Shown piece by piece: positions 306 through 54,683 of a stretch of DNA of 64,000 nucleotides. The position numbers and the translations under genes were made by a program. Within the stretch, counting starts at the first letter, position 1. The number at the start of each line of letters is the position of its first letter. The DNA comes from Thermoplasmatota archaeon (GTDB lineage Archaea; Thermoplasmatota; Poseidoniia; Poseidoniales; Thalassarchaeaceae), in contig JAYZLP010000023.1 of assembly GCA_036154155.1 (NCBI GenBank), forward strand, positions 3,056 to 67,055, read 5' to 3'. The notes under the pieces are model-generated. The model searched no databases and had not been told where the DNA came from. It was given only the letters and a program-made list of their open reading frames with translations.

Positions 306-692
306 ATGCCCGGCACGACACGAGTTGAGATTAGGACCTTGAAAGTAGGAAGGTACGTCGCCATTGACGAGAACGCGTACAAGATACTGGGAATGAGCAA
401 GTCCAAGCCTGGAAAACACGGCTCAGCAAAGGCCAGGATTGAGCTAGAAGACATCTTCACGGGCCAGAAGAGGAGCCACGTCGGTACTGTTACTGACACC
501 ATTAATGTGCCAATGATAGAGAAGGGATCGGCTATTGTCACCCATATCCAAGGAAACGAGGTACATGCTATGGACAACAAGACCTACGAGACACTGATCC
601 TCCCGACCGATCCAGAACTAAACCTAGAGCCCGGCGGGGAGATCCAGTGGATGGAAGCAATGGGAAGGTACAAGGTCACACGTGACCACTGA
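306..692 (+). CDS. eif5a: Translation initiation factor 5A (aIF-5A)
   Basis: 128 aa. The hypusination loop SKSKPGKHGSAKARIE has the conserved GKHG lysine. The N-terminal SH3-like part and the C-terminal OB part are typical of a/eIF5A. Confidence 0.9.
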   Translation: MPGTTRVEIRTLKVGRYVAIDENAYKILGMSKSKPGKHGSAKARIELEDIFTGQKRSHVGTVTDTINVPMIEKGSAIVTHIQGNEVHAMDNKTYETLILPTDPELNLEPGGEIQWMEAMGRYKVTRDH

Positions 693-14183: not shown

Positions 14184-14353
14184 GTTCGAGTCATCGACTC
14201 TCCCATCTCGCTTTCAAGCCATCCTAGCATTATGGCGCTAGAACGTCTATACTGCACTAATTGCATCACCGCCATCCCAATGCACTGTATTCCTCGAGAA
14301 GATAACATTGATGTACGTACACGAGGCCCGCCAACCGTTAGGTGCACGAAAAA

Positions 14354-21300: not shown

Positions 21301-21882
21301 ATGCCGCTACCCGATATGAAAGCATGGGATGGTAGAATCGCATACCTTGACAGGGACGGCGTCATAAACAGAGGTTTCGAGGACTACGTCAATTCAGTCG
21401 ATGAGGTCGAGTTACTACCAATGGCAGCTAAGTCAATTGGCGAACTCAGGAGATCAGGCTTCAGGGTTTGCGTTGTGACAAACCAGTCACCAGTGGGTCG
21501 CGGACTTTGGAGCAGAGAAAACCTAGCTTCAATTCATTCCGAGATAAGGAGGCTCCTCCTCATAGACGACAAGGACGCGCATCTGGACTTAGTTCTGCAT
21601 AGCCCATACGCCCCATGGGAGAACTCTTGGGCAAGAAAGCCGAATCCTGGGATGCTGGAGGCATCAAGACAAATAATGAATCATGCTCATTCGGACTCTT
21701 CGTTATCAGGCCTAACCATATTGTACGGCCCTGATTGGAAGGATAGGCCATCAGAGGAAGGCTCAGTAATGGTCGGTGACAGGGGAGTTGACATGAAGGC
21801 ATCCGCCGAATTTGGAGTAATTGGTTATAGGTGCGATCCCGATGATGGAATTGGTGGGGTCATCGAATCTATCCTGGGGTGA
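21301..21882 (+). CDS. gmhB: HAD-family D,D-heptose 1,7-bisphosphate phosphatase (GmhB-like)
   Basis: AYLDRDGVIN is the HAD motif I (DxDG). VVTNQSPVGRG is motif II and MVGDRGVDMKASAEFG is motif III/IV. Confidence 0.7.
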   Translation: MPLPDMKAWDGRIAYLDRDGVINRGFEDYVNSVDEVELLPMAAKSIGELRRSGFRVCVVTNQSPVGRGLWSRENLASIHSEIRRLLLIDDKDAHLDLVLHSPYAPWENSWARKPNPGMLEASRQIMNHAHSDSSLSGLTILYGPDWKDRPSEEGSVMVGDRGVDMKASAEFGVIGYRCDPDDGIGGVIESILG

Positions 21883-23144
21883 TCAGGCTGACTAAATCTC
21901 TCCGTACCACAGTCATGATTGGTCTGGATGACACCGACCATCCTGATGTAGGATGCACGACCCATGCTCTGGATTCGCTCGTGTCAAGAATATCGGAAGA
22001 ACCCTGGTCTGAGATATTGGAGAGGCGCCTGGTAAGACTCTGGCCCTTTGCACCAAGGAGGACTAGGGGGAATGGTGCACTTTGCGTGATTGCCTCAGTG
22101 GAATCATCTTCAATCGATCTCTTGGAGGGAATATGTGAAAGTTGGTTTGATGACCTAGCAGAGTCTATTTCCAAGTATCCAGATAATGGTATCAAGGCAT
22201 CACCTTGCCTTCTGATTTCATACAGTCGGACTCCAGAGTCATGGTACTGGGATTCAGTCAGGGCGGAGGTCGACATAGAAAACAGGAGGGCCGAGGTAAG
22301 GGCCTCTGGCACCAAGGTACTGGAGTTAGACGAGGGATGGGGCATTATTGGGGCTTCAGCGGCCATTTCATGGGTGCCAAGGGAGCACTCTTCGTGGGAA
22401 CTAATAGCCTGGAGGGATGAAGCAAGGGTTGGTTCAGAAAGAGAAGTCAGTCACGAGGCCGTTGCTCAGATGGCGCAAAGCCATCCAGAAACGTTCCTGA
22501 ACAGAGACCCCACCAAGAATAAGGGGCTGATTGCCCCTAGGACGCCATGTCCTGTTTTGTATGGCATCAGGGGCGAAACATGCAATTCAGTTACCGAAGC
22601 CCATATGTGGTTGCAAGGAAGAAACGACGTTGAGGCCAGCCATAAATGGGCCCCGCACAGAACCAATCAAATGTCCGATGACCACTTGGTCGGAGTCTGC
22701 ACAGGAACCGTACTTTCTCCACCTCATGAGGGAAGGGGGGCCCACACAAATCTCAGGGTTCTGGCCAATGGAAAGGTGTCCATTCTAGTGGTCTTCAAGG
22801 AGGGCGGAGAAGTCAACAGGCTAGTGAGGCAGTTAATTCCCGGAGACCGTATTAATTGGATGGGCTTAGAATCTCCCGATGGATCAATACACCTTGAGAG
22901 GGTCTCATTGCACTCTGCTGTTCCAAGGATTTCTTCACGGCCATCGTGTTGTGGTACGACAATGAGGAGTGCCGGAAGGAACCAATCCCTCAGATGCCTC
23001 AATTGCGGCAACACTAGTGACAAGTTGTGGGTGTCAGAACCATGGTCTCCCACCGGCGTCTCTCCTGTATCCGGTTGGTTTGAGCCGTCCCCCTCGCAGA
23101 GGAGGCACCTCGCAAAGCCACTAAATCAGGGAGTCCCCACGTAA
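21879..23144 (+). CDS. tiaS: tRNA(Ile2) 2-agmatinylcytidine synthetase TiaS
   Basis: The N-terminal MIGLDDTDHPDVGCTTH matches the TiaS kinase-like signature (GIDDTDSxxGMCTT). There is a C-terminal zinc ribbon (LRCLNCGNTSD). Confidence 0.75.
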   Translation: MIRLTKSLRTTVMIGLDDTDHPDVGCTTHALDSLVSRISEEPWSEILERRLVRLWPFAPRRTRGNGALCVIASVESSSIDLLEGICESWFDDLAESISKYPDNGIKASPCLLISYSRTPESWYWDSVRAEVDIENRRAEVRASGTKVLELDEGWGIIGASAAISWVPREHSSWELIAWRDEARVGSEREVSHEAVAQMAQSHPETFLNRDPTKNKGLIAPRTPCPVLYGIRGETCNSVTEAHMWLQGRNDVEASHKWAPHRTNQMSDDHLVGVCTGTVLSPPHEGRGAHTNLRVLANGKVSILVVFKEGGEVNRLVRQLIPGDRINWMGLESPDGSIHLERVSLHSAVPRISSRPSCCGTTMRSAGRNQSLRCLNCGNTSDKLWVSEPWSPTGVSPVSGWFEPSPSQRRHLAKPLNQGVPT

Positions 23145-25638: not shown

Positions 25639-26391
25639 CTAGCGCACGGGTGTTAGCCTTGCAGAATTGACATTCCATGCCCCTCTGGAGCCTTCCCAAG
25701 CAACTTCCCCCACTGCCTCTATACTCCGTTCCATATGTGGAGCTCCAAGAACTAGCGTCTCAAACTCCCCTCCCTCTCCATCTACATTGAATCTGTATCT
25801 TCTCGAGAGATCCTGTAGTCGTTCAACTTCCTCATTCCCTATACTGGCGCCCAGCCACTCAACGCCCAGCCCCTCGCAAGAGACTGAGGCAATACGGACA
25901 TCGAAGCCGTGTCGGCAGAGATTTTCCATGTGCTTATCAGGGGAGTTATGCCAGAGTGGTGAGAACGAATGAACACCCAATCTCTCGCACATCATCTCTA
26001 TCCTGGTCTTTTGAAAATCGGATCTGAGGGCCCCGGAGACAACAGCATCAAACTCCAACAAACCCTCATGAATCTCTATTCCAGAAGAGTCCCACCCCTC
26101 GGGCCACGCCTTTTCCATAGCCAGTCCTGGCTCGGAAAGACCTCTCAGACCACCTTCCAAATCCCTCATTTCCTGCTCAATGTCCCCCGAAGTCAGTATT
26201 GGTAGCCATGGGATTCCCGCTGATGCCGCTTGCATGCCGGCTATGGCAACCCCCTGAGTTTGGAACATCATTGAATCATCTCCAGTTATGCACATGGTAA
26301 CTACGGCCTTGACGTCCCAGCCCCTCATTAGTGCCCACCAAGTGGAATATGCGGAATCTTTTCCCCCTGAACCCATAATTACCACTCTCAT
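25639..26391 (-). CDS. dph6: Diphthine--ammonia ligase (Dph6, PP-loop ATPase)
   Basis: MRVVIMGSGGKDSAYS is the PP-loop SGGKDS motif at the N-terminus. The substrate, EF-2, is encoded in the same window. The 20-codon 5' extension in the track was trimmed. Confidence 0.7.
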   Translation of the reverse strand: MRVVIMGSGGKDSAYSTWWALMRGWDVKAVVTMCITGDDSMMFQTQGVAIAGMQAASAGIPWLPILTSGDIEQEMRDLEGGLRGLSEPGLAMEKAWPEGWDSSGIEIHEGLLEFDAVVSGALRSDFQKTRIEMMCERLGVHSFSPLWHNSPDKHMENLCRHGFDVRIASVSCEGLGVEWLGASIGNEEVERLQDLSRRYRFNVDGEGGEFETLVLGAPHMERSIEAVGEVAWEGSRGAWNVNSARLTPVR

Positions 26392-26481
26392 GCATCCCCC
26401 TGTGGGCTGAAGCGCTTGAATGCCTCGATTGACGAGCCTCTTAACAACCAACCTTGATAAGAGGCCAGTGAGGCATGGGGC

Positions 26482-32291: not shown

Positions 32292-33279
32292 TTTTCCTCC
32301 TAATCTCCTCTGTGATGTTGACAGCTTCAGAAACTCCCTCAGCTGCTAGGCGCCTAGCCACAAAGAATGCTTCAGAGAGCCTCCCTCCCTCAATTAGCCC
32401 CCTGACTTCTGCCAGTGGTTCCTCCTCAATCTCCTCTTCTGGAGAGCCTTCATCGACTCGGTCCAGAACTGGTGTGGCCATAGATTCCATCTTCCTCAAG
32501 AAATCCACTCTCTCGTTAACTGCGGGAATAATCCAAGGCCTACTTTCGCCACCGTCAAGAAGAGCCTCCATTCTTTCCTTGAATTGATCACGTACGTCCA
32601 TCTTGGGGAATTGCGTCTGTGCTTGATCGTAACAGATCCAAGCATCGCTATATTCTCCTCTACGTTCATGCATCCTTCCCAATTCGGCCCATGCCTCAAA
32701 GTTCGTAGGCCTTTGAGCCAGAATCAGTCTAGCTAGTGATAAGTAGCCATCTTCATCACCACTATCCCTGACTCTCTCTATTCTCCTTGAGAACAAGACA
32801 TTGGCCCTCCTGTCCCGCAGGTCTAGGGATTTGACCCTGGTGATGAAGGCAGAGATTTCTTCATTCGAGCCTGATATTGTCCCCCACCACTCGTCTGGGT
32901 CCAATGGATCAGCCGCCAGAGCCCCCTCCAGTATCATACTGCCCGACTCAAGCATGTCGACATCATCCAGCTGATTGAGAAGTTCCGGGTCCCTTCCCAG
33001 TACCGTGAAGATATCATCTAGTACCGCCCTAATCCCTTCCCGGTCACCGGATACAGCCTTGACCTTGAGAAGAACCCTCCAGTTATCCGGGTGGGTAAAG
33101 TCATGCAGTACGGCCTGTCGAGCATTCTGCTCTGCCCAACCAAGATTTGTAGAATCTGAATCAGTTCCATTTGCAATTTTCAGATACTTTACTGCCTGAC
33201 TTCTGTGGCGGTTCCCAAGACTCCTTCTTGGATGCTGTAGCTTATCGTCAATTGAGTCTACAGACATTGGATACCTCAC
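32278..33279 (-). CDS. Hypothetical TPR-like repeat protein
   Basis: 333 aa, helical and acidic. It overlaps the stops and starts of its neighbours, so it lies in an operon with the UbiD-family gene and the Nudix gene. Confidence 0.4.
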   Translation of the reverse strand: MRYPMSVDSIDDKLQHPRRSLGNRHRSQAVKYLKIANGTDSDSTNLGWAEQNARQAVLHDFTHPDNWRVLLKVKAVSGDREGIRAVLDDIFTVLGRDPELLNQLDDVDMLESGSMILEGALAADPLDPDEWWGTISGSNEEISAFITRVKSLDLRDRRANVLFSRRIERVRDSGDEDGYLSLARLILAQRPTNFEAWAELGRMHERRGEYSDAWICYDQAQTQFPKMDVRDQFKERMEALLDGGESRPWIIPAVNERVDFLRKMESMATPVLDRVDEGSPEEEIEEEPLAEVRGLIEGGRLSEAFFVARRLAAEGVSEAVNITEEIRRKIGDE

Positions 33280-34613
33280 AGAACCGACTCATACGGACTC
33301 CTGTCCTCATCTGGATCAAGTGTAGCATCCATCCCTATCTTACTAGTCATTCCATTCTCTGACCTGCTCGGGTCTAAACTGGAACCTTTCTGGTTAGAGA
33401 GAATAACTGTGTCAGCATCCGGCTGCCAACGTGTCATTAAGGCCCACTCCACCCTCATCGGGTCAGAAATATCGATATCCTCGTCCACCACAATCACCTG
33501 TTTCATTGATGGATGTCCCTCGAAGGCCGCCTGAATGGCCTTCCTACCATCCTCTGGGCCCTCGGGCACGATTTGAATAACCGATGCCAACCACCCACAG
33601 CCGCCATCTGTCATGTGAACGTCCGTGCACTTCACGACTTCCGATACCGCTGTTTTGATCGTCGGGGCTCTAGGCATTCCCATCAGGGTCCTATGCTCCA
33701 CGCCAGTGGGGATTATGGCGTGGAAGATAGGGTCGGACCTGTGATGCACGGCATCGTACTCGATAACATGCTCCTGCCGGACATCATCGACGGTTCCGGT
33801 AATGTCAACATAGGGGCCTTCATCATCCCGCTGAGGTGTAATTCTTGCTTGCATGGCATATTCTGCATCTGCGGGAACGATGACCCCATTGGATAACCGA
33901 ACTACCCTGAGGGGGCTACCGTGTAATTTCTCATGCAATGCCGCTGCTACGGTTAACTCGTCGACGTAGTCCGTGAAGGACATAGCAGCTGCAAGAAGTA
34001 CAGTTGGATCGGCGCCGTTCACTACGGCTATCTGGACATCTTCACCTTTGTCGGCGGCCATCGTGCTGAGGGTTCTGAGATGCCTCGGCACTAGCCTAGC
34101 AACTGTATGGTTCCCATCTCGCAATAGCTGCCTGTGGAATGACACATTCCTCACTCCTCCGTATTCAGCGATAATTATGGAAGCTGACTGATATCTCCCG
34201 CCATCCTCCCTGAAGTGCCAGGGTATTGGCAATTTTTCTAAATCCACTGAATCCTGCCCCGATTCCATTACTTCGGCATCCGATTTCTCAACCATGAGTG
34301 GCTCCGAGGGGTTCTCCATTGCCCACGCTAGGATGTCAATAAGCTCCCCAGGCCCCACATCAAACATCTCGCACAATCTAGAGCGTTCTAAGACATTGAG
34401 CGCGGCTCTGTGCCCGGGCGTTTCAGAAATATTGTTGAAAACCAAGGGAATATTGCCCATGGAAACAGACGTGTCCATCATATCGTAGTTTACACTAACA
34501 GAATCGTCTATGCGATGGACGCCCTCGAGCATATCGCGGAATGCCATGTACGGGGGCGACATCAGGTCGTGCTTCAATGTTAGTGAGACTATCGTACCTA
34601 GAGTGCTACTCAC
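33276..34613 (-). CDS. ubiD: UbiD-family (prFMN-dependent) decarboxylase
   Basis: 445 aa. UbiD-like sequence blocks appear throughout (…VVRLSNGVIVPADAEYAM…, …GTVDDVRQEHVIEYDAVHH…). Confidence 0.7.
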   Translation of the reverse strand: MSSTLGTIVSLTLKHDLMSPPYMAFRDMLEGVHRIDDSVSVNYDMMDTSVSMGNIPLVFNNISETPGHRAALNVLERSRLCEMFDVGPGELIDILAWAMENPSEPLMVEKSDAEVMESGQDSVDLEKLPIPWHFREDGGRYQSASIIIAEYGGVRNVSFHRQLLRDGNHTVARLVPRHLRTLSTMAADKGEDVQIAVVNGADPTVLLAAAMSFTDYVDELTVAAALHEKLHGSPLRVVRLSNGVIVPADAEYAMQARITPQRDDEGPYVDITGTVDDVRQEHVIEYDAVHHRSDPIFHAIIPTGVEHRTLMGMPRAPTIKTAVSEVVKCTDVHMTDGGCGWLASVIQIVPEGPEDGRKAIQAAFEGHPSMKQVIVVDEDIDISDPMRVEWALMTRWQPDADTVILSNQKGSSLDPSRSENGMTSKIGMDATLDPDEDRSPYESVL

Positions 34614-35827: not shown

Positions 35828-38035
35828 ATGGGTCGTAAGGAAGACAACATCAAGCGTGCTACAGAGATAATGCACGATAGGGAGCACATCAGAAACATCG
35901 CTATCGCAGCTCACATAGATCATGGAAAGACGACGCTTTCAGACAATCTAATCGCTGGCGCTGGAATGATGTCGGAGGACCTCGCAGGAAAGTCCAGGGT
36001 TCTGGACTTCGACGAGCAGGAAAGCGCGCGCGGTATCACGATCAATGCCGCCAGCGCTTCAATGGTACACAGCGTTGAAGGTCAGGACTACCTGATCAAT
36101 CTAATCGATACCCCCGGGCACGTTGATTTCGGTGGCGACGTCACCAGAGCGATGAGGGCCGTGGACGGCTGCATCATTCTTGCATGTGCCGTTGAGGGCA
36201 CAATGCCCCAGACCGAGACTGTTGTTCGCCAAGCGCTGAAGGAGAAGGTCCGCCCTGTTCTCTTCATCAACAAGGTTGACCGATTGATCAACGAGCTACA
36301 GATAGATGGCCCAGAGATGATGGAGCGATTCAAGAGGATCATCACCAAGGTCAACAAATTGATCACCACCTATGCGCCAGAGGACCTGAAGAAACAATGG
36401 CAGGTCTCCGTTGAGAATGGAACCGTTGCATTCGGCTCGGCTTACTACAATTGGGGGATGTCGATACCTTACATGCAGAAGAGCGGATTGAATTTCACAC
36501 AGATTTTTGAGTATTGCCACAACGATAACCAGAAGGAGCTTGCGAAACTCGCACCCGTTCACACCGTACTCCTCGACATGACCGTCGAAAAGCACCCTTC
36601 ACCCGTAATTGCTCAGAAGTACAGGATACCAAACATCTGGCAAGGGGACCTTGACTCAGGCGTTGGAAAGGCAATGATTGAGTGCGACCCAGATGGCCCG
36701 CTCTCACTCATGATAACCAAGATTTGGATGGACCCTCACGCTGGTGAGGTTGCTGTAGGAAGAGTCTACTCAGGCAGGATAAAGCATGGTGAATCCGTTT
36801 GGGCCATAGGTGCTGCGAAGGCTGAGAGGGTTCAGCAGGTCGGTATGATGGTCGGAGGCGACAGAATCGCCACATCAGAAGTTACATCTGGAAATATTGC
36901 TGCAATAACGGGAATCCGCAGCGCTGCTGCAGGCGTGACCATTGCCAGGGAGAAGGACGCAGCACCATTTGAGGCGATCAGGCACATCTCCGAACCTGTC
37001 GTCACTGTTGCAGTTGAGCCTAAGTCGATGAAGGACCTTCCAAAGTTCATCGACGCTCTGAGGGGCCTCGCCAAAGCAGATGCCTCATTGGACGTCTCAA
37101 CTAACCAGGAAACCGGTGAGGCATTGTTGGCAGGAATGGGCGAACTGCATCTCGAAATCACAGTATACAGGCTCGAAGAAGAGCAGGGCATCAAAGTAAA
37201 GGTAAGCGAGCCAATTGTCGTTTACAGGGAATCAGTACAGAGCACTAACACCGGAAGCCCGTTCGAAGGTAAGTCCCCTAACAGGCACAACCGTTTCTAC
37301 ATCGAGATAGAACCCCTTCCTGATGTAGTCGTTGAGCAGCTCAGGGCTGGCGAATTCAGAGACGGAGCAGTCAGAACCAAGGATGCCAAAGAAGTCGGAG
37401 ATAAGTTCGCCGAACTTGGAATGAACAAGGATCTGATGAGGAAAATATACGCTATCAATGGAACGAATGTACTAGTCAATGACACTAAGGGGATTCAGAA
37501 CCTCCACGAGACCAGGGAGCTCATTATCGAGGGCTTCAATGATGTTTGTAAGAAAGGCCCTGTTGCCGACGAGCCTTTGATGGGTGTCATGGTTAGGCTG
37601 GTAGACGCAAAGCTTCACGAGGATGCCATCCACAGGGGCCCAGCACAAACCATTCCAGCTGTAAGAAACGCGGTTAAGGGGGCATTCATGAGATCCAGGC
37701 CAGTAATTTTCGAACCAATACAGAAGATACAGATCGACTCACCGAATGACGTAATTGGCGGAGTTACAAGGGAGGTGTCCACGAGGAGAGGGATCATCGA
37801 GGACATGCCAGTGGAGGACGGAGTTACAAAGGTCATAGGAACAATCCCTGTTGCCGAGACTTTCGGTTTCTCTAACGACATACGTGCAGCCAGCCAAGGA
37901 AGGGCGATATGGAACACTGAGAATGCTGGATTCGTACATCTTCCACCTAACCTATTTGAGAAGGTCACCGCTGAGATCAGGGAGAGGAAGGGACTCAACC
38001 CTGACATCCCAGGCGAATCTCATTACCAGGATTGA
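35828..38035 (+). CDS. fusA: Elongation factor 2 (aEF-2)
   Basis: NIAIAAHIDHGKTTLSDNL is the G1 motif and DTPGHVDF is G3. 735 aa. The diphthamide loop region is near the C-terminus. Confidence 0.95.
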   Translation: MGRKEDNIKRATEIMHDREHIRNIAIAAHIDHGKTTLSDNLIAGAGMMSEDLAGKSRVLDFDEQESARGITINAASASMVHSVEGQDYLINLIDTPGHVDFGGDVTRAMRAVDGCIILACAVEGTMPQTETVVRQALKEKVRPVLFINKVDRLINELQIDGPEMMERFKRIITKVNKLITTYAPEDLKKQWQVSVENGTVAFGSAYYNWGMSIPYMQKSGLNFTQIFEYCHNDNQKELAKLAPVHTVLLDMTVEKHPSPVIAQKYRIPNIWQGDLDSGVGKAMIECDPDGPLSLMITKIWMDPHAGEVAVGRVYSGRIKHGESVWAIGAAKAERVQQVGMMVGGDRIATSEVTSGNIAAITGIRSAAAGVTIAREKDAAPFEAIRHISEPVVTVAVEPKSMKDLPKFIDALRGLAKADASLDVSTNQETGEALLAGMGELHLEITVYRLEEEQGIKVKVSEPIVVYRESVQSTNTGSPFEGKSPNRHNRFYIEIEPLPDVVVEQLRAGEFRDGAVRTKDAKEVGDKFAELGMNKDLMRKIYAINGTNVLVNDTKGIQNLHETRELIIEGFNDVCKKGPVADEPLMGVMVRLVDAKLHEDAIHRGPAQTIPAVRNAVKGAFMRSRPVIFEPIQKIQIDSPNDVIGGVTREVSTRRGIIEDMPVEDGVTKVIGTIPVAETFGFSNDIRAASQGRAIWNTENAGFVHLPPNLFEKVTAEIRERKGLNPDIPGESHYQD

Positions 38036-38036
38036 A

Positions 38037-39749
38037 TTAGTTAATCCTGATTAGCTGGAAATCGGTTAGCTCTCTGAGTATGCTCAATGCGGGACTATCT
38101 GAAACTGAGTCTAGGCACTCATGCGCAACAGCGTGGTGATGCATGGCTCTGTTCTTCGCGTATTCGATTGAGCCACTTTCGTGCAATTCGGCCACAGCTC
38201 TCGACAGCACATCTTCAGAACACTCTCCAGAACCATACGCCTCTGAAAATGCCGGCATTTCATGATCACAATTTAGAGCATGGATGGCAATCAATGTCTT
38301 CTTTCCTTGGACAATGTCTGATCCGGCTGGTTTTCCTAGGGTTTCCGTGTCTCCAGTGATATCAATCAAATCATCCATCAGCTGAAAACAAAGTCCCAAA
38401 TTTAGCCCCCATCTCTTCATATTGTCCACAGCTTCATCAGAAGCACCTGCAAGTATCGCCCCTGTTCCAGCGCATGTCTCGAACATCACGCTGGTCTTGC
38501 CTTTGATCATCTCGATGTATTCTTCCTCAGATACCGAGTCCCTAGACTCAAATGAGATGTCCTCCTGTTGACCACTCGCAACATTCCTTACCATTTCACC
38601 AATCGATCTTACTAGAAACCCGAGCTTGTCCTGTTCAATATGCGGCGACTCAGCCAGGATCTCAAAGGCAACTGCTAGCATCGCATCTCCAGCATTTATC
38701 GCCGTAGAATCATCATATGCTACATGCACTGCATCTAGACCTCTCCTGATGGGGTCCTGATCCATCAAATCATCATGTACGAGGGTGAAATTATGGATTA
38801 TCTCGATAGATGCACCGAGGGTATAGTGTCCTTCATGTGCCTCACCAACGGCCTCCCCTACTAATCTGGGCAGCGTAGCCCTCAGTCTCTTGCCACCCCC
38901 ACTGAATAGGTGACTCATGGCCCCATGCAACCTCTCCTGCTTCATTTTGCTGAGGCTGTGCATGATGACATCCTCAACATGCTCTCGGTGGTTGCCTATT
39001 GCAATCATTAGGTTCTGTCCAGGATTGACCGGCTCTCCATCCATCATGACCTCTCCGAAGTTGACAACCCCATCTATGGGTGGAATACTGCCCACATCTG
39101 GGTAATGATCGGCTAGGAATCTCCCCCATAGAAGTCTGAACCAAGGAGCAATAATCTCGCCCTCCCAAATTCCTGAGCCAGAAAACATCTCCTCAATTTC
39201 CTCTCCCTCTATCCATCTGTGGTTGGAGATTTCGTTTGGATTCGGGCTTACTTCAATTGAATCTGTGGTGGCCACCAATACATGATCTACTTCTCTCTCA
39301 ATCCATTCCTCATTCCATCTACATTCGTAAAGGAATGACCCTATGTGCCGAAAATCTATTCTGGCAATATCGTCCTCTGAAACCCCCAATTCCTGGGAAA
39401 GCTTCCTTTTCGCCGCATTAATGGCTCCTTCCGCTGGGTCCCCGTTCTCACCAGTAATGTCCAGGGGGTGGCTACAACACGAGTTCGCCCAAACGGATGG
39501 GAACGTGATTTTGTCATGTGACCTCTGCTGAACTAGCATTTTCCCCTCCCCATCAAACAATAACACACTGAATGCCCTGTGCAGAATCCCTTCCTCATAG
39601 TGGCAGTTAAATTTTGAATCGGAACCTGTCATTTTGTCCGCACTATCGACCAAGATACACATTTCGGACATCATTTCTGCCTGCGAGCTGTCCTGCCCAC
39701 TAAGTGCCCCATCTCGACTCGCCATAATTCCCGGAGGAATCGGCAACAT
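38037..39749 (-). CDS. idi-ggps: Bifunctional fusion: type-1 isopentenyl-diphosphate isomerase (Nudix) + geranylgeranyl diphosphate synthase
   Basis: The N-terminal half has IDI1 signatures (ILVDSADKMTG...HRAFSVLLFDGEGKMLVQQRSHDKITFPSVWANSCCSHPL, with the catalytic Cys and Glu). The C-terminal half is a trans-prenyltransferase with FTLVHDDLMDQD (first DDxxD) and a second Asp-rich motif FQLMDDLIDI. 570 aa as called. The true start may be the internal MM at about 39674. Confidence 0.8.
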   Translation of the reverse strand: MLPIPPGIMASRDGALSGQDSSQAEMMSEMCILVDSADKMTGSDSKFNCHYEEGILHRAFSVLLFDGEGKMLVQQRSHDKITFPSVWANSCCSHPLDITGENGDPAEGAINAAKRKLSQELGVSEDDIARIDFRHIGSFLYECRWNEEWIEREVDHVLVATTDSIEVSPNPNEISNHRWIEGEEIEEMFSGSGIWEGEIIAPWFRLLWGRFLADHYPDVGSIPPIDGVVNFGEVMMDGEPVNPGQNLMIAIGNHREHVEDVIMHSLSKMKQERLHGAMSHLFSGGGKRLRATLPRLVGEAVGEAHEGHYTLGASIEIIHNFTLVHDDLMDQDPIRRGLDAVHVAYDDSTAINAGDAMLAVAFEILAESPHIEQDKLGFLVRSIGEMVRNVASGQQEDISFESRDSVSEEEYIEMIKGKTSVMFETCAGTGAILAGASDEAVDNMKRWGLNLGLCFQLMDDLIDITGDTETLGKPAGSDIVQGKKTLIAIHALNCDHEMPAFSEAYGSGECSEDVLSRAVAELHESGSIEYAKNRAMHHHAVAHECLDSVSDSPALSILRELTDFQLIRIN

Positions 39750-48981: not shown

Positions 48982-49126
48982 TCCTTGTCAGACAATTCTT
49001 ATCACATGCCTCTAGGTGTCAATACACATGGTGGCGGAGGTCATGCCGCTATCTGGAAATCTAGAATGGCGCGAAAGGCTTTCCATGATGCCGGTCCCAC
49101 TGGCTGTATCTTCCGACCCTTTGACC

Positions 49127-50239
49127 ATGTCTTGCCTAAATTCCCTAATCGAGGAAGGAAGAGTTTCTCGTAACCAGGGGATCAAGTTATTCGAGAATCC
49201 GTCTCTTTCCTCCGTCACATCACTCGCAAACATGGTAAAGAAGTCCAGATACGGGGATAACGTATTTTTCAATGAGAATCTACATGTTAACACTACCAAT
49301 ATCTGTGTCTTAGCATGCCGTTTTTGCGCATTCAGGAAGGGACCTAGGCATCCCGATGCTTACGAATTGGACAAAGACGAATACCTGGGTAGGATAAGGC
49401 CATTTTCAGGCTCCATTGATGAAGTTCACACAGTAGGTGGCCTCCATCCAAATTGGGATGTCGAGGACTATTGCAGGCTGTTTTCTGCTACCAAATTAGA
49501 ATTCCCGCACATCCATATCAAGGCTCTAACAGCCGTTGAGATCAAACACCTCTCTCAACGATCCTCATTGCCCGTCAAGGAGACGCTCTCATTGCTCTCC
49601 GAAGCAGGGTTGGACTCGCTCCCCGGTGGCGGTGCTGAGATACTAGTTGACCACGTTAGAGACAGGATATGCATGGGCAAGGAGTCCTCCCGGGAATATC
49701 TCGATATCCATTCAATAGCCCATGGTATAGGCATGCCAACAAATTGCACAATGTTATTTGGCACAGTCGAAACAATCGAAGACAGGGTCGAGCACCTCAT
49801 ACGACTGAGGGAGCAGCAGGATATCAGTGAGGGATTCCAGTGCTTCGTCCCATACCCTTTCCTCCCTGACAAAACGAGGCTGCCGGAGGCTCAACTAGCG
49901 ACTGGTAGCGAGATCATTAGGGTAATTTCCCTATCTAGGATAATGTTGGACAACATTCCCCACATTAAGGCATACAGGATGAATATAGGAGACAAGCTAT
50001 CGTCATTGGCACTCACGTGCGGTGCGGACGATATTGATGGAACGGTCGGCCACGAAGAAATTATGCACGTTGCTGGAAGCTCTACTAGGCTTGACACGAG
50101 CTCTGACCAGCTAGCAGCATTGGTATCTTCTACTGGCTCGATTCCTGTTAAAAGAAACTCTAACTACTCCACATTCGAGCTCTATACGACTAATAATCCC
50201 TCATTCTCGAGAGTTCTGCCTCAGATAGCCATAAATTAG
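49127..50239 (+). CDS. mqnC: Radical SAM enzyme of the MqnC/MqnE (futalosine pathway) family
   Basis: NENLHVNTTNICVLACRFCAFRK is the CxxxCxFC radical-SAM motif in its MqnC/E/CofH-type context. About 370 aa from the MSCLNSLIEEG start. I cannot assign MqnC versus MqnE by eye. Confidence 0.65.
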   Translation: MSCLNSLIEEGRVSRNQGIKLFENPSLSSVTSLANMVKKSRYGDNVFFNENLHVNTTNICVLACRFCAFRKGPRHPDAYELDKDEYLGRIRPFSGSIDEVHTVGGLHPNWDVEDYCRLFSATKLEFPHIHIKALTAVEIKHLSQRSSLPVKETLSLLSEAGLDSLPGGGAEILVDHVRDRICMGKESSREYLDIHSIAHGIGMPTNCTMLFGTVETIEDRVEHLIRLREQQDISEGFQCFVPYPFLPDKTRLPEAQLATGSEIIRVISLSRIMLDNIPHIKAYRMNIGDKLSSLALTCGADDIDGTVGHEEIMHVAGSSTRLDTSSDQLAALVSSTGSIPVKRNSNYSTFELYTTNNPSFSRVLPQIAIN

Positions 50240-50253
50240 GTCAGGTGCAAATT

Positions 50254-51054
50254 ATGAGTTGGATGGATGTGATAGGCAGGGTCTCATTCGCGAATTGTGA
50301 TCCAATTTTCGATGGATTGGATGAGAAGTGGTCTGTTCTCTCGGCTCCACCCGCTTGGCTAACCGGGCATGTTCTCAGAAAGGACTGCCTGACGGCACCC
50401 ATACCAGCTGCTGACTACGCGTTGCACCATGACGAGCTTTTCCTCCTCCCTGACCTGGGGATTGTTAGTAGCGGGGATGTAGGATCCGTTCTTCTGTTCG
50501 GGTCAAGGCCTCTGGAAAGCATGAGGGATATCGCACTACCTTCCGACTCCTCCACATCCAAGGTACTACTCAGATGGGCACTCGGTAATAGAGGCCTAGA
50601 TCCAAAATTCGTCGATTCTGGTCCAGATATAGATACAATGCTGGCAAAATGCGATGGGGCCTTGCTTATCGGTGACCGTTCACTTTTGGCTTCAAGGGAG
50701 TACCCCGATTTAGTACAATTGGATCTTGGGCGTGAATGGAACGAATCCACTGGTCTGCCAATGGTCTTCGGCGTGTTTGCAGCTAGACGCGACACGCCGA
50801 TAAATCACTTGATGGGGGCATACGATGATATGATTTCTCAGCTGGAGAAATTCGAGACTGATGATTCATGGAGGGCTAGTGTTGTTTCCAGGACATCTGA
50901 GAAATTAGGATTCCCTTACTCTAGAATGGACGACTATTTTCGGCGCGAGGTAAGGAATAGGATGAATGACAGGGATGTCGAAGGATTGACGACCTTCCTG
51001 GAAATTGCCTGCGGATTGGAAGATGTTCCGCATTGGGCCTTTCATTCGGAATAG
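50254..51054 (+). CDS. mqnA: Chorismate dehydratase MqnA-like
   Basis: The N-terminal VIGRVSFANCDPIFDGL resembles the MqnA 'lrIGrIsYLNxlPLf' signature. The fold is periplasmic-binding-protein-like. Confidence 0.55.
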   Translation: MSWMDVIGRVSFANCDPIFDGLDEKWSVLSAPPAWLTGHVLRKDCLTAPIPAADYALHHDELFLLPDLGIVSSGDVGSVLLFGSRPLESMRDIALPSDSSTSKVLLRWALGNRGLDPKFVDSGPDIDTMLAKCDGALLIGDRSLLASREYPDLVQLDLGREWNESTGLPMVFGVFAARRDTPINHLMGAYDDMISQLEKFETDDSWRASVVSRTSEKLGFPYSRMDDYFRREVRNRMNDRDVEGLTTFLEIACGLEDVPHWAFHSE

Positions 51055-51521
51055 TTGAGCCTCTTGCTGGCAACCCATTCTAGGAGGTCTAATGCGACCT
51101 CGCAAGATTCCGCTACAACGATGTCCCTATCGTCCTTGAACTCTTCAAGGACACCCAGTGCCTTCCTATCTCCTATCGCACCCAATGCTTCTGCAGCCTC
51201 GTGCCTAACCATGACATCCTCTTCCATGTCTCGCAGCCTCTCAATTAGGTGTGGAACTGCATGAGAATCTTGCATTTGCCCCATCACATATGCAATTTCA
51301 TGCTTCAGTAGTGCTGAATCTGATGTGAATGCCGCAGCAAGGGCCTCTACGGAGTCCTTGCCACCAATATTCCTCAACGCGAATAGTGCCCTCATCCTCT
51401 GAAACATCCTCTCTTTCTCGTCGCAAATCGTCTTCCTAAGGCTAGGAACATCAGAATCGCTGCTAGGAGGAGCAGGATCTACTGAGTCGAACTCACTCAT
51501 CTCCGGCTTTTCACCATTCAT
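51042..51521 (-). CDS. Half-size deoxyhypusine-hydroxylase-like HEAT-repeat protein with two His-Glu motifs
   Basis: 159 aa. SVDPAPP...RMRALFALRNIGG...SALLKHEIAYVMGQMQD...PMVRHEAAEALGAIGD...VVAESCEVALDLLEW aligns block for block with one half of eukaryotic DOHH as I recall it. Both HE metal-ligand dyads are present. The ATG directly abuts the mqnD TAA stop. Confidence 0.6.
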   Translation of the reverse strand: MNGEKPEMSEFDSVDPAPPSSDSDVPSLRKTICDEKERMFQRMRALFALRNIGGKDSVEALAAAFTSDSALLKHEIAYVMGQMQDSHAVPHLIERLRDMEEDVMVRHEAAEALGAIGDRKALGVLEEFKDDRDIVVAESCEVALDLLEWVASKRLNYSE

Positions 51522-52382
51522 TTACTCACCCGATCCAATGAATATTATTGAGTCCACATCTAGTGTTTCCCTAACCATTCCGATTCTTTGCCCCTCCTTC
51601 AGAAATAGGCGTATTGCATCCCTGCCGTCCTCTCCGTAGTCTAGAGTCCTTTCGTTGACATACATCCCAACAAATTCCCTATTCGTGTCATCGTCTATCC
51701 CCCTGCCCCACGCTTTTGCGAATTCAAGGGCTGCGGTCGGGTTAGCTAACGAATGCTCGATGCTATTCCTGACATCAGCAGTAAGTTGTTCGCACAACTC
51801 AACACCAAGGTCCTTCCTCACGACATTTCCGCCCAGGGGTAGCGGTAGACCTGTGTGCTCATTCCACCACACCCCTAGATCCAAAACCAACTTTACCCCT
51901 TCTGACTCCCATGTCAACTGACCTTCATGAATTATCAATCCCAAATCGTACTTTCCCTCGGATACTCCTGGGAGAATTTCATCGAATGGTACCACCTCTA
52001 TGTCGACATCTCCCCATGCCAGCCTCAATGCCAGATATGCGCTCGTCCCCAGTCCGGGTATTGCAATCTTCGTTCTCCTAGCCTCTTCAATGGACATGTC
52101 TCTGTTAGAAATTAGCATAGGGCCATAACCCTCTCCCATAGAAGCGCCACAGTTCATCAGATGGTACTTATCGGAAATCTCCGGGAATGAATGGATGCTT
52201 ACTGCTGAAACTTCATACTCACCAAGGAGGGCGTGTTTGTTCAGGGTCTCAATATCAAGAAGTACATGTTCATACTCTCTGTCACCAGTATCGATAGCCC
52301 CTGTTGTCATCGCATGAAACATGAATGCATCATCGGGATCTGGGGAATGGCCAACTCGGTACGCCCCCGCCTTACTACTCAT
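51522..52382 (-). CDS. mqnD: MqnD-like (1,4-dihydroxy-6-naphthoate synthase family)
   Basis: YRVGHSPDPDDAFMFHAMTTG matches the MqnA/MqnD-family N-terminal signature (SPxxxDxF). The start was trimmed to MSSKAG. Confidence 0.55.
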   Translation of the reverse strand: MSSKAGAYRVGHSPDPDDAFMFHAMTTGAIDTGDREYEHVLLDIETLNKHALLGEYEVSAVSIHSFPEISDKYHLMNCGASMGEGYGPMLISNRDMSIEEARRTKIAIPGLGTSAYLALRLAWGDVDIEVVPFDEILPGVSEGKYDLGLIIHEGQLTWESEGVKLVLDLGVWWNEHTGLPLPLGGNVVRKDLGVELCEQLTADVRNSIEHSLANPTAALEFAKAWGRGIDDDTNREFVGMYVNERTLDYGEDGRDAIRLFLKEGQRIGMVRETLDVDSIIFIGSGE

Positions 52383-52470
52383 GTGCCTTCGGTATGGGAC
52401 GCATAGAAAATTCCTTTCCTGCTGAATTGTGTATGGCAACAGTGAATAGCCATCGCTCGGTCCCAGATTT

Positions 52471-52668
52471 GTGCCTGACCCGACCAAACTATCAACCGCT
52501 ACTGGTCAACTCGGGCCTATATGCGCAGTTACAGGGAAGGCACTGACGTTCTCGGAGGCGATCGTCGTCGATGACAGATTCGTTTGCTACGAGGCATACC
52601 TCGAATTAACGGGCAACGAGCCAGCTACGGACTCAAAGGAAGTACCTACCAGCCTAGTACTGGATTAG
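52471..52668 (+). CDS. Small hypothetical ORF in the mqnD–priS divergent spacer
   Basis: 65 aa with no recognised motif. It is the only ORF in a 320-bp intergenic region. Coding status is doubtful. Confidence 0.2.
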   Translation: MPDPTKLSTATGQLGPICAVTGKALTFSEAIVVDDRFVCYEAYLELTGNEPATDSKEVPTSLVLD

Positions 52669-53945: not shown

Positions 53946-54683
53946 GTGGGGCATATGCCAGACGACGAAGAAACCGAAGGTGGGCCTTCAGGGATGCCGC
54001 TTCCGCCGCTTCCCCCAGGCATTGCGATGCCTCCTCCGCCACCCCCCCCTCCACTCCCAGACGAGTCCATAGAGAGTGCAATTGACGAGAATCCGCCCCT
54101 GCCTACATTGCCGAGTCAAGAAGAAGAGTCGGAATCCAATGATTTCCAAGCGCACTGGGAGAAAAGAAAGCTTGAGGAGTCGACCGAGTCATCCGGCAAT
54201 AGGGATAGCATGTACGGCCATATTGATAGGATATCTTCAGGGCAGGTCGGAACTTTGTTAGATAGATTTTCGGATAGATTCGGCTCCGAATTGGATAGGG
54301 AAATTATCGTTCTTAGGAAGAAGCAGCAACAGGATATGCTGGCAATCAAGCCCATTGTAGAGCTCATCTCCGCACCAGAATCTGATGATGACGCGATTGA
54401 AGAGAGCGAGGATGATGAGTTCCCAGAATTTTTCTCTATAGTCAATGAACTGTTAGGAAATATGCCCGAGGAATTCGTTCAGGAGTTCATAGAGTCGGAA
54501 TCATTCGAGCTTTTCCAGAATGTGGGTGAAGACCCATCAGGTTGCGATCATGACACCAGGAGCGAGTTTTTCACCATGATTAATTCAGTTCTAGGAGACC
54601 TTCCCGAGAGCGAAATTAATGACTTCGTTGCTTCACCTGGGTTCCAAGTCTTTCAACGAATGAGTGAGTTATACGGAGAGTGA
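53946..54683 (+). CDS. Hypothetical highly acidic protein with a poly-proline tract and an internal tandem duplication
   Basis: PLPPLPPGIAMPPPPPPPPLPDE, then two copies of a module of about 35 aa (EFFSIVNELLGNMPEEFVQEFIESESFELFQNV / EFFTMINSVLGDLPESEINDFVASPGFQVFQRM). Confidence 0.5.
   Translation: MGHMPDDEETEGGPSGMPLPPLPPGIAMPPPPPPPPLPDESIESAIDENPPLPTLPSQEEESESNDFQAHWEKRKLEESTESSGNRDSMYGHIDRISSGQVGTLLDRFSDRFGSELDREIIVLRKKQQQDMLAIKPIVELISAPESDDDAIEESEDDEFPEFFSIVNELLGNMPEEFVQEFIESESFELFQNVGEDPSGCDHDTRSEFFTMINSVLGDLPESEINDFVASPGFQVFQRMSELYGE

What the first reader, a model, noticed from the sequence alone, without database searches (positions are those of the whole stretch)
51042..51521. Half-size deoxyhypusine-hydroxylase (DOHH)-like di-iron HEAT protein, translationally coupled to mqnD
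The 159-aa protein reads like one symmetric half of eukaryotic DOHH. The matching blocks are SVDPAPP, RMRALFALRNIGG, the two His-Glu dyads (LLKHEIAYVMGQMQD and MVRHEAAEALGAIGD) and a terminal ...ESCEVALDLLEW. That is beyond the generic PBS-lyase HEAT consensus, which has VRxxAA rather than VRHEAA. Eukaryotic DOHH needs four HE dyads from two such halves, so a homodimer of this protein could rebuild the di-iron site. Several archaea hydroxylate deoxyhypusine on aIF5A, yet no archaeal DOHH has been found. The aIF5A gene with its GKHG lysine is at 306..692 in this window. Alternatively, the tight ATG/TAA junction with mqnD suggests a di-iron oxygenase acting on a quinone intermediate, for example ring hydroxylation towards a modified archaeal quinone. 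Either role would be new.
Basis: partly seen in the sequence, partly recalled or inferred. Interest (0 to 1): 0.85.

Follow-up and report, generated by a model that had tools for sequence, protein, structure and literature searches.

The report
Half-size archaeal deoxyhypusine hydroxylase homologue
A marine archaeon (Marine Group II) encodes a protein that is exactly one half of the eukaryotic enzyme that finishes the hypusine modification of translation factor 5A; published reviews say archaea lack this enzyme, so the gene gives a concrete candidate to test.

Summary
ORF 51042..51521 (-) encodes 159 aa with four HEAT repeats. It matches both halves of human deoxyhypusine hydroxylase (DOHH, PDB 4D4Z) over its whole length: E 1.8e-76, 125 and 133 bits, about 46-50% identity. 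Generic PBS-type HEAT proteins give at most 46 bits per stretch.

Both His-Glu dyads (H74-E75, H107-E108) and the counterparts of the human deoxyhypusine-binding residues (E75, G81) are essentially invariant in 199 distinct orthologues. A head-to-tail tandem of the protein models onto 4D4Z at TM 0.94 and rmsd 1.3 A.

All identified carriers are Poseidoniales (Marine Group II). The gene always sits directly after mqnD and is better conserved than its neighbours. It is roughly equidistant from eukaryotic N- and C-halves, and closer to each than they are to each other.

Best reading: a homodimeric di-iron DOHH that converts deoxyhypusine on aIF5A to hypusine. This is inferred, not shown. The main rival is a different substrate linked to menaquinone synthesis. 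Automated pipelines already label it "deoxyhypusine monooxygenase", but I found no paper describing an archaeal DOHH. It does not explain hypusine in Crenarchaeota.

The parts
51042..51521 (-). Half-size (four HEAT repeat, 159 aa) homologue of deoxyhypusine hydroxylase
   Evidence: ORF. Pfam HEAT_PBS 3.5e-17 and HEAT_2 3.1e-15. Human DOHH 4D4Z E 1.8e-76, both halves matched. Monomer model pLDDT 88.3 with 4D4Z as best PDB match, TMq 0.83. Tandem model TM 0.94 and rmsd 1.3 A to 4D4Z.
51297..51302 (-). His74-Glu75 dyad (CAT GAA), counterpart of human H56-E57 and H207-E208
   Evidence: Read from the sequence. Register from the alignment. H in 198 of 199 and E in 199 of 199 distinct orthologues.
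51198..51203 (-). His107-Glu108 dyad (CAC GAG), counterpart of human H89-E90 and H240-E241
   Evidence: Read from the sequence. Register from the alignment. Both residues in 199 of 199 orthologues.
51465..51491 (-). N-terminal arm FDSVDPAPP, homologous to the linker between the two halves of eukaryotic DOHH
   Evidence: Aligned to human ...YLSVDPAPP. D and P are invariant in 46 eukaryotic DOHHs. At least 99% conserved in 199 archaeal sequences. Confidently placed only in the linker position of the tandem model.
51522..52487 (-). mqnD (1,4-dihydroxy-6-naphthoate synthase). The probable start is the ATG at 52382 (286 aa). Its stop codon abuts the DOHH-like start codon.
   Evidence: Pfam VitK2_biosynth 1.6e-66. 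PDB 2CZL/3A3U 2.7e-54. Relatives are called at 285 aa. Directly upstream in 79 of 79 species genomes that hold upstream DNA.
50245..51054 (+). mqnA (chorismate dehydratase), convergent; its 3' end overlaps the DOHH-like gene by 13 bases
   Evidence: Pfam VitK2_biosynth 3.1e-47. PDB chorismate dehydratase 7AHR 1.1e-20.
49016..50239 (+). Radical SAM enzyme of the futalosine pathway (MqnE or MqnC)
   Evidence: NCBIfam MqnE 1.2e-114 and MqnC 1.3e-97, both below the curated cut-offs.
306..692 (+). aIF5A, the proposed substrate. The modifiable lysine is Lys37 in GKHG (414..416). It lies 50 kb away and is not linked.
   Evidence: Pfam IF5A-like_N 1.6e-13. Translation. Best PDB matches are archaeal aIF5A 1EIF/2EIF at 4.4e-29.

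Best explanation
The gene encodes a single-unit deoxyhypusine hydroxylase. Each 159-aa chain is one arm of four HEAT repeats. Each chain carries one complete iron-binding set (His74, His107, Glu108), plus Glu75 and Gly81, the counterparts of the human residues that bind the amino end of the deoxyhypusine side chain. Two chains associate around a two-fold axis in the way the N- and C-halves of eukaryotic DOHH pack, which brings the two iron sites together into an O2-activating di-iron centre. The conserved N-terminal arm FDSVDPAPP, which is the inter-half linker in eukaryotes, probably clasps the partner subunit. The enzyme then hydroxylates C2 of the deoxyhypusine on Lys37 of aIF5A to give hypusine in this aerobic archaeon.

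Shown: the specific homology, conservation of ligand and substrate-binding residues, single copy, strong purifying selection, and compatibility of two copies with the 4D4Z architecture. Inferred: dimerisation, iron content, the substrate and the role of the arm.

Co-transcription with mqnD is read as operon hitch-hiking, or as co-regulation of two functions tied to aerobic life, not as a shared pathway.
For: 1. DOHH-specific similarity. Human DOHH scores E 1.8e-76, with the whole query aligned to each half at 125.5 and 132.6 bits. Generic HEAT proteins give at most 46 bits per stretch.
2. Among 1.84 billion representative proteins, the best non-repetitive matches are about 300-aa two-stretch proteins at 42-52% identity. 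Those looked up are eukaryotic DOHH.
3. H74, E75, G81, Q82, H107 and E108 are invariant or nearly so in 199 distinct orthologues. The human counterparts H56/H89/E90/H207/H240/E241 anchor the irons, and E57/E90/E208/E241 plus two glycines bind the deoxyhypusine side chain (PMC9117371).
4. Twenty-six columns are invariant across the archaeal proteins and both eukaryotic halves.
5. The tandem model has pLDDT 91.8 and pTM 0.89. It superposes on 4D4Z at TM 0.94 and rmsd 1.3 A over 285-288 columns.
6. The protein is 72-95% identical across 80 species, more than MqnD (59-95%), MqnA (49-92%), the radical SAM enzyme or PriS. Sixty-eight of 159 positions are at least 99% conserved.
7. No paralogue lies in the window and base composition is native, so a homodimer is more likely than a heterodimer.
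8. aIF5A with the GKHG lysine is present. Marine Group II archaea are aerobic (PMC6461757), and some of their genomes carry a deoxyhypusine synthase homologue (PMC10407285).
Against: There are no biochemical data.

The gene is always fused into an operon with mqnD and is never next to dhs or aIF5A.

The tandem model used an alignment of eukaryotic DOHHs, and 4D4Z predates AlphaFold2 training, so it shows compatibility and is not independent evidence for a dimer.

A single chain already holds a 2-His-1-carboxylate set, so a mono-iron monomer is conceivable.

Deoxyhypusine synthase was not found in the window or in the flanks of relatives. Its presence in this genome rests on the literature.

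All identified carriers are Poseidoniales, so the gene does not explain hypusine in Crenarchaeota.
Confidence: 0.6

Rival explanations
1. Same fold and di-iron chemistry, but the substrate is a menaquinone-pathway intermediate or the finished quinone. The enzyme would make a hydroxylated or otherwise oxidised archaeal naphthoquinone, and would be co-expressed with MqnD because it acts in that pathway.
For: There is zero to a few bases between mqnD and this gene in every genome examined, down to 60% protein identity. MqnA and a futalosine radical SAM enzyme lie next door. A UbiD-family decarboxylase and a polyprenyl synthase are in the same window.
Against: All genomes are from one order with conserved synteny over the whole block from PriS to transketolase, so the linkage counts as one evolutionary event. 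The canonical futalosine route needs no hydroxylation after MqnD (established pathway knowledge). The non-ligand Glu75 and Gly81, which bind the amine of deoxyhypusine in the human enzyme, are invariant, which is unexpected for an aromatic, hydrophobic substrate. Identity of 43-46% to enzymes whose only known substrate is eIF5A favours an unchanged substrate.
Confidence: 0.15
2. A DOHH-derived hydroxylase that acts on another aminobutyl-bearing molecule, for example free homospermidine, spermidine or another polyamine, and not on aIF5A.
For: The amine-binding residues are kept. Marine Group II genomes carry a deoxyhypusine synthase homologue interpreted as a homospermidine synthase, next to agmatinase and an arginine decarboxylase (PMC10407285).
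Against: No DOHH is known to use a free polyamine. Conservation extends well beyond the active-site residues, with 26 columns shared with both eukaryotic halves, which suggests a protein-binding surface is kept too.
Confidence: 0.1
3. A monomeric mono-iron enzyme or a non-catalytic HEAT scaffold, with the DOHH resemblance a relic.
For: One chain carries only two of the four HE dyads that define DOHH. The monomer is predicted to fold on its own, with pLDDT 88.3.
Against: Near-absolute conservation of both dyads and of the arm argues for catalysis. The protein fits the two-half architecture. It is more conserved than the neighbouring enzymes.
Confidence: 0.05

Closest known systems
Eukaryotic deoxyhypusine hydroxylase (human DOHH, PDB 4D4Z; yeast Lia1)
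   Same: HEAT-repeat fold. His-Glu dyads in the same helices. The motifs SALLKHE.AY.GQ and MVRHEAAEALG. The SVDPAPP segment. Identity of 43-46% to each half on average, up to 53%. Two copies superpose at TM 0.94.
   Different: Half the length: four HEAT repeats and two HE dyads per chain instead of eight and four. It must therefore act as a dimer. It is encoded in an archaeon, in an operon with mqnD. It carries an N-terminal arm where eukaryotes have an internal linker.
PBS-lyase type HEAT repeat proteins (Pfam PF03130; CpcE, NblB, MTH187, designed alphaRep proteins)
   Same: Same repeat type. The Pfam HEAT_PBS gathering score is passed (61.4 against 20.9).
   Different: They have no His-Glu dyads. 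Scores are only 20-46 bits per equivalent stretch. NCBIfam lyase models are far below their cut-offs (NblB 39 against 300, CpcE 25 against 330). Fold match is TM 0.66 against 0.83 for DOHH.
EpmC (YfcM), the bacterial hydroxylase of the lysyl-lysine modification on EF-P
   Same: Functional analogue from my own knowledge: it is the last, hydroxylating step in modifying the orthologous translation factor.
   Different: Unrelated fold and sequence; no similarity was seen in any search here.
Ferritin-like di-iron hydroxylases (Coq7, MiaE)
   Same: O2-activating di-iron chemistry. Coq7 acts on a quinone ring, which is the model for the rival explanation.
   Different: They have a four-helix-bundle carboxylate-bridged fold, not HEAT repeats. 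No Pfam match to such families was found.

Membership tests
Deoxyhypusine hydroxylase (DOHH) | Sequence similarity specific to DOHH and above the generic HEAT_PBS level | tested here: met
   4D4Z E 1.8e-76, with 125.5 and 132.6 bits for the two halves, against at most 46 bits per stretch for other HEAT proteins.
Deoxyhypusine hydroxylase (DOHH) | Eight HEAT repeats in a symmetric dyad, with four His-Glu motifs in one polypeptide | tested here: not met
   159 aa, four repeats and two HE motifs. The full set would need a homodimer.
Deoxyhypusine hydroxylase (DOHH) | Iron ligands equivalent to H56, H89, E90 / H207, H240, E241 | tested here: met
   H74, H107 and E108 align with them. They are present in 198-199 of 199 orthologues.
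Deoxyhypusine hydroxylase (DOHH) | Deoxyhypusine-binding residues equivalent to E57/E208 and the conserved glycines (G214 and its N-half counterpart) | tested here: met
   E75 and G81 are invariant in 199 of 199. Roles of the human residues come from PMC9117371.
Deoxyhypusine hydroxylase (DOHH) | The two halves pack so that the HE helices face each other | tested here: inconclusive
   The tandem model matches 4D4Z at TM 0.94 and rmsd 1.3 A. However, it was built on a eukaryotic alignment, and no multimer prediction or independent interface test was possible.
Deoxyhypusine hydroxylase (DOHH) | Two irons per active unit and a stable peroxo-di-iron(III) intermediate | not testable with these tools
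   Needs purified protein.
Deoxyhypusine hydroxylase (DOHH) | Converts deoxyhypusine to hypusine on IF5A | not testable with these tools
   Needs an enzyme assay or mass spectrometry.
Deoxyhypusine hydroxylase (DOHH) | The genome also encodes IF5A and deoxyhypusine synthase | tested here: inconclusive
   aIF5A is present at 306..692. No DHS was found in the window or in 86 related loci. The literature reports DHS in all archaeal genomes and a DHS homologue in Marine Group II genomes.
Phycobilin lyase / NblB type HEAT_PBS proteins | Reaches the curated NCBIfam score for CpcE, CpeY or NblB | tested here: not met
   39.2 against 300, 24.7 against 330 and 15.4 against 600.
Pfam HEAT_PBS (PF03130) | Reaches the gathering score | tested here: met
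   61.4 bits against 20.9.

The most novel reading that the evidence does not exclude
The Marine Group II protein is a slowly evolving survivor of the single-unit ancestor from which eukaryotic DOHH arose by head-to-tail duplication. In that case the hydroxylation step of hypusine synthesis is not a purely eukaryotic invention. It either existed in archaea or passed between a Poseidoniales-like lineage and stem eukaryotes before the duplication.

Supporting observations:
- The protein is about equally distant from N- and C-halves (Kimura 1.02 and 0.99), closer than they are to each other (1.26), and closer to generic HEAT repeats (1.54 against 1.84).
- Eighty-two of 94 eukaryotic N-halves resemble it more than they resemble other N-halves on average.
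- Its open reading frame begins exactly at the boundary between the eukaryotic halves.

Rooting is unresolved. Quartets give 42% for branching outside both halves, 33% for sister to the C-half and 25% for sister to the N-half. An ancient eukaryote-to-archaeon transfer followed by halving is not excluded.
Probability: 0.3. Interest if true: 0.85.

Novelty: new variant of a known kind. Interest (0 to 1): 0.75.

Why it matters
Hypusine is among the most specific protein modifications known. Its second enzyme, DOHH, has been described as absent from archaea for about twenty years, although some archaea contain hypusine.

This gene family gives a clear archaeal homologue that can be cloned and tested. 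It predicts that the abundant surface-ocean Marine Group II archaea carry fully hydroxylated hypusine.

It also offers a natural minimal, symmetric version of an unusual HEAT-repeat di-iron oxygenase, which would be useful for mechanistic and structural work. It bears directly on how the eight-repeat eukaryotic enzyme arose.

It would not solve how Crenarchaeota such as Sulfolobus make hypusine, because every carrier identified is Poseidoniales.

Tried and rejected
1. Neighbour-joining trees of 80 eukaryotic halves, 8 archaeal proteins and 8 generic HEAT outgroups. Bootstrap support for any arrangement of the three groups was low: monophyly of the archaeal group 0.85 without outgroup, and 0.2 or less for the N and C groups. 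Quartet rooting was unresolved. A first attempt timed out.

2. Diagnostic columns separating N- from C-halves. Only two pass a 60% threshold, one of each type. The protein is a mosaic, not a copy of either half.

3. A tandem alignment made only of archaeal sequences, for an independent dimer prediction.

4. A Foldseek search of the AlphaFold database, to find half-size relatives with organism names. That library was not available.

Nothing was found. Pfam scans of about 45 window ORFs also found none.

6. Full-length (about 280 aa) hits that might have been prokaryotic. Their contigs have low coding density and fragments of eukaryotic domains, so they are eukaryotic.

7. Recent horizontal transfer. 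Rejected because GC and GC3 match the neighbours and the gene is present with the same synteny throughout the group.

8. Literature searches for an archaeal DOHH, for K06072, or for any link to Marine Group II. None was found.

Full report
**Observation**

The minus-strand ORF 51042..51521 starts with ATG and encodes 159 residues. The TAA stop of the upstream gene (51522-51524) touches the ATG (51519-51521).

The upstream gene is MqnD: Pfam VitK2_biosynth 1.6e-66 and Thermus MqnD 2CZL/3A3U at 2.7e-54. The convergent downstream gene is MqnA, chorismate dehydratase (7AHR, 1.1e-20). Next to it is a futalosine-pathway radical SAM enzyme, MqnE or MqnC. aIF5A lies at 306..692, with the modifiable lysine at position 37 in GKHG.

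**Is the DOHH resemblance specific?**

Yes. Pfam sees only HEAT_PBS and HEAT_2. NCBIfam phycobilin-lyase models are far below their cut-offs.

A phmmer search of all PDB sequences puts human deoxyhypusine hydroxylase (4D4Z) first at E 1.8e-76. The entire query aligns without gaps to the N-half (125.5 bits) and again to the C-half (132.6 bits). Designed PBS-HEAT proteins reach at most 46 bits for an equivalent stretch. The natural archaeal HEAT protein MTH187 and CpcE reach about 22 bits.

An exhaustive HMMER scan of 1.84 billion representatives gave three kinds of top hit:
- very long multi-repeat proteins, whose best single stretches score only 25-39 bits;
- about 300-aa proteins with two matched stretches at 42-52% identity;
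- three half-size entries: two clusters (P0018 and P0217) and a 123-aa fragment.

The 300-aa proteins that I looked up are eukaryotic DOHH: a fungus, a crustacean, insects and EukProt transcripts. Two that came from metagenomes sit on contigs with eukaryotic gene structure.

**Active-site residues**

The alignment puts H74-E75 opposite human H56-E57 and H207-E208. It puts H107-E108 opposite H89-E90 and H240-E241. G81 falls opposite G214 and the corresponding glycine of the N-half.

According to PMC9117371, the six residues H56, H89, E90, H207, H240 and E241 anchor the two irons. E57, E90, E208, E241 and two glycines bind the deoxyhypusine side chain.

In 199 distinct archaeal orthologues (120 protein clusters, 77 species genomes and the P0217 group), E75, G81, Q82, H107 and E108 are invariant, and H74 is present in 198. 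Sixty-eight of 159 positions are at least 99% conserved, including the N-terminal segment F-DSVDPAP. Twenty-six columns are invariant across the archaeal proteins and both halves of three eukaryotic enzymes.

**Structure**

With an alignment of archaeal sequences only, the monomer is predicted as four helical hairpins (pLDDT 88.3), with a disordered N-terminal arm and tail. Its best PDB match is 4D4Z (TMq 0.83, 48% identity), ahead of the alphaRep proteins (0.66).

A head-to-tail tandem of the window protein mimics the eukaryotic architecture, because residues 3-20 align with the eukaryotic inter-half linker. It was modelled with an alignment of 46 eukaryotic DOHHs. The result was pLDDT 91.8 and pTM 0.89. 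It superposes on 4D4Z at TM 0.94 and rmsd 1.3 A over 285-288 columns, whereas the next hits have TM below 0.45.

This shows that two copies are compatible with the di-iron architecture. It is not independent proof of dimerisation: the alignment was eukaryotic and 4D4Z predates the training of the predictor. A prediction based only on archaeal sequences could not be set up.

**Distribution and context**

A scan of one genome per species for 185,579 prokaryotic species found 401 stretches that encode a relative. The 80 best are all Poseidoniales (Marine Group II) genomes, and the named ones are Thalassarchaeaceae. I could not inspect the remaining 321.

In all 79 loci that hold upstream DNA, mqnD lies immediately upstream on the same strand. 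MqnA, the radical SAM enzyme, PriS and transketolase also keep their places. The same holds for the divergent P0217 group at 60% identity. There a WD40 protein of about 790 aa is inserted after the gene.

The protein is 72-95% identical across these species. That is higher than MqnD (59-95%), MqnA (49-92%), the radical SAM enzyme or PriS. The window holds no paralogue, and GC and GC3 match the neighbours.

No deoxyhypusine synthase was found in the window or in the flanks. aIF5A is 50 kb away and is absent from the flanks of relatives.

**Relation to the two eukaryotic halves**

Over 127 aligned columns the window protein is on average 43% identical to 94 eukaryotic N-halves and 46% to the C-halves. 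N- and C-halves of the same protein share 38%.

Mean Kimura distances:

| Pair | Distance |
|---|---|
| Archaeal protein to N-halves | 1.02 |
| Archaeal protein to C-halves | 0.99 |
| N-halves to C-halves | 1.26 |
| Archaeal protein to generic HEAT outgroups | 1.54 |
| Either eukaryotic half to generic HEAT outgroups | 1.84 |

Eighty-two of 94 N-halves are closer to the archaeal proteins than to the average of other N-halves. Similarity to the archaeal proteins tracks overall conservation (r 0.81 and 0.64), so no donor lineage stands out.

The sequence is a mosaic. The core looks N-like (LLKHE, GQMQD, GAIGD, LEW). The ends look C-like (the SVDPAPP arm, ESCEVALD, the tail).

Rooting with outgroups is unresolved: 42% of quartets place it outside both halves, 33% with C and 25% with N. 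Neighbour-joining bootstraps are weak. Both a pre-duplication origin and an ancient transfer followed by halving remain open.

**Mechanism proposed**

Each chain supplies His74, His107 and Glu108 to one iron. Two chains pack like the two arms of DOHH to form the di-iron centre. Glu75 and Gly81 from both chains hold the terminal amine of deoxyhypusine. O2 is activated as in the human enzyme, and C2 of the aminobutyl chain on aIF5A Lys37 is hydroxylated.

This fits an aerobic organism (PMC6461757). It also fits the report that Marine Group II genomes carry a deoxyhypusine synthase homologue next to agmatinase and an arginine decarboxylase (PMC10407285). That arrangement recalls the agmatine-based route described in Haloferax (PMC6105217). 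Dimerisation, metal content and substrate are inferences. I put this reading at about 0.6.

**Rivals**

The fixed operon with mqnD suggests a quinone-related substrate. Three points weigh against it. The linkage is a single event within one order. The futalosine route needs no hydroxylation after MqnD. The amine-binding residues are invariant. I give it about 0.15.

A free polyamine substrate gets about 0.1. A mono-iron monomer or a scaffold gets about 0.05.

**Novelty**

Papers from 2016, 2018 and 2021 state that no DOHH orthologue has been found in archaea. Full-text searches found no later report, no mention of K06072 and no link to Marine Group II.

JGI's automated annotation already calls these proteins deoxyhypusine monooxygenase, while NCBI calls them HEAT repeat, PBS lyase or hypothetical proteins. 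The sequence is therefore known to pipelines but, as far as the held literature shows, undescribed.

It is a new variant of a known enzyme kind: half-size, presumably homodimeric, and archaeal. It does not explain hypusine in Crenarchaeota, because all identified carriers are Poseidoniales.

Noticed in passing
L087:8542-10902, L090:6547-8922, L091:6523-8928, L092:6532-8916; also inferred in L030, L032, L036-L038, L041, L062, L065, L068, L081: In part of the Marine Group II lineage, a WD40 beta-propeller protein of about 790 aa is inserted directly after the DOHH-like gene on the same strand, making an mqnD / DOHH-like / WD40 array. The window's own lineage lacks it. Large WD40 proteins are unusual in archaea.
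   Followed up: partly
window 52471-52668 (+): A 65-aa ORF lies between PriS and mqnD, divergent from mqnD. It is called as a 64-85 aa gene at the same place in most related contigs examined (not called in L090). It has no Pfam hit on record.
   Followed up: no
window 33276-34613 (-) and 38037-39749 (-): A UbiD-family decarboxylase, possibly the late futalosine-pathway decarboxylase, and a polyprenyl synthase fused to a NUDIX domain. Several quinone or isoprenoid genes therefore lie in this window but are scattered.
   Followed up: no
window 25639-26451 (-), 21879-23144 (+), 35828-38035 (+): Other translation-factor and tRNA modification genes are in the window: a diphthamide synthase (Dph6-like), the agmatidine synthase TiaS, and EF-2, which is the diphthamide target.
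   Followed up: no
window 14342-19642 (+): A 1766-aa Lhr-type helicase (DEAD, Helicase_C, WH_Lhr and DEAD_assoc domains) with about 900 residues of C-terminal sequence that match no Pfam family.
   Followed up: no
window 53946-54683 (+): A 245-aa ORF with a proline-rich N-terminus (PPPPPPPLP) and a very acidic remainder, next to PriS. Relatives have unannotated genes of similar size at this position.
   Followed up: no
L014 and L029 (both from MAG UBA105): Two different contigs of one metagenome-assembled genome each carry the full mqnD / DOHH-like block, at 84% and 79% identity to the query. This points to a mixed bin and not to a true paralogue.
   Followed up: no
window 51522-52487 (-): The mechanical ORF for MqnD starts at a TTG that gives 321 aa. 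Relatives are called at 285 aa, so the likely start is the ATG at 52382, leaving an 88-base divergent intergenic region up to the small ORF.
   Followed up: partly
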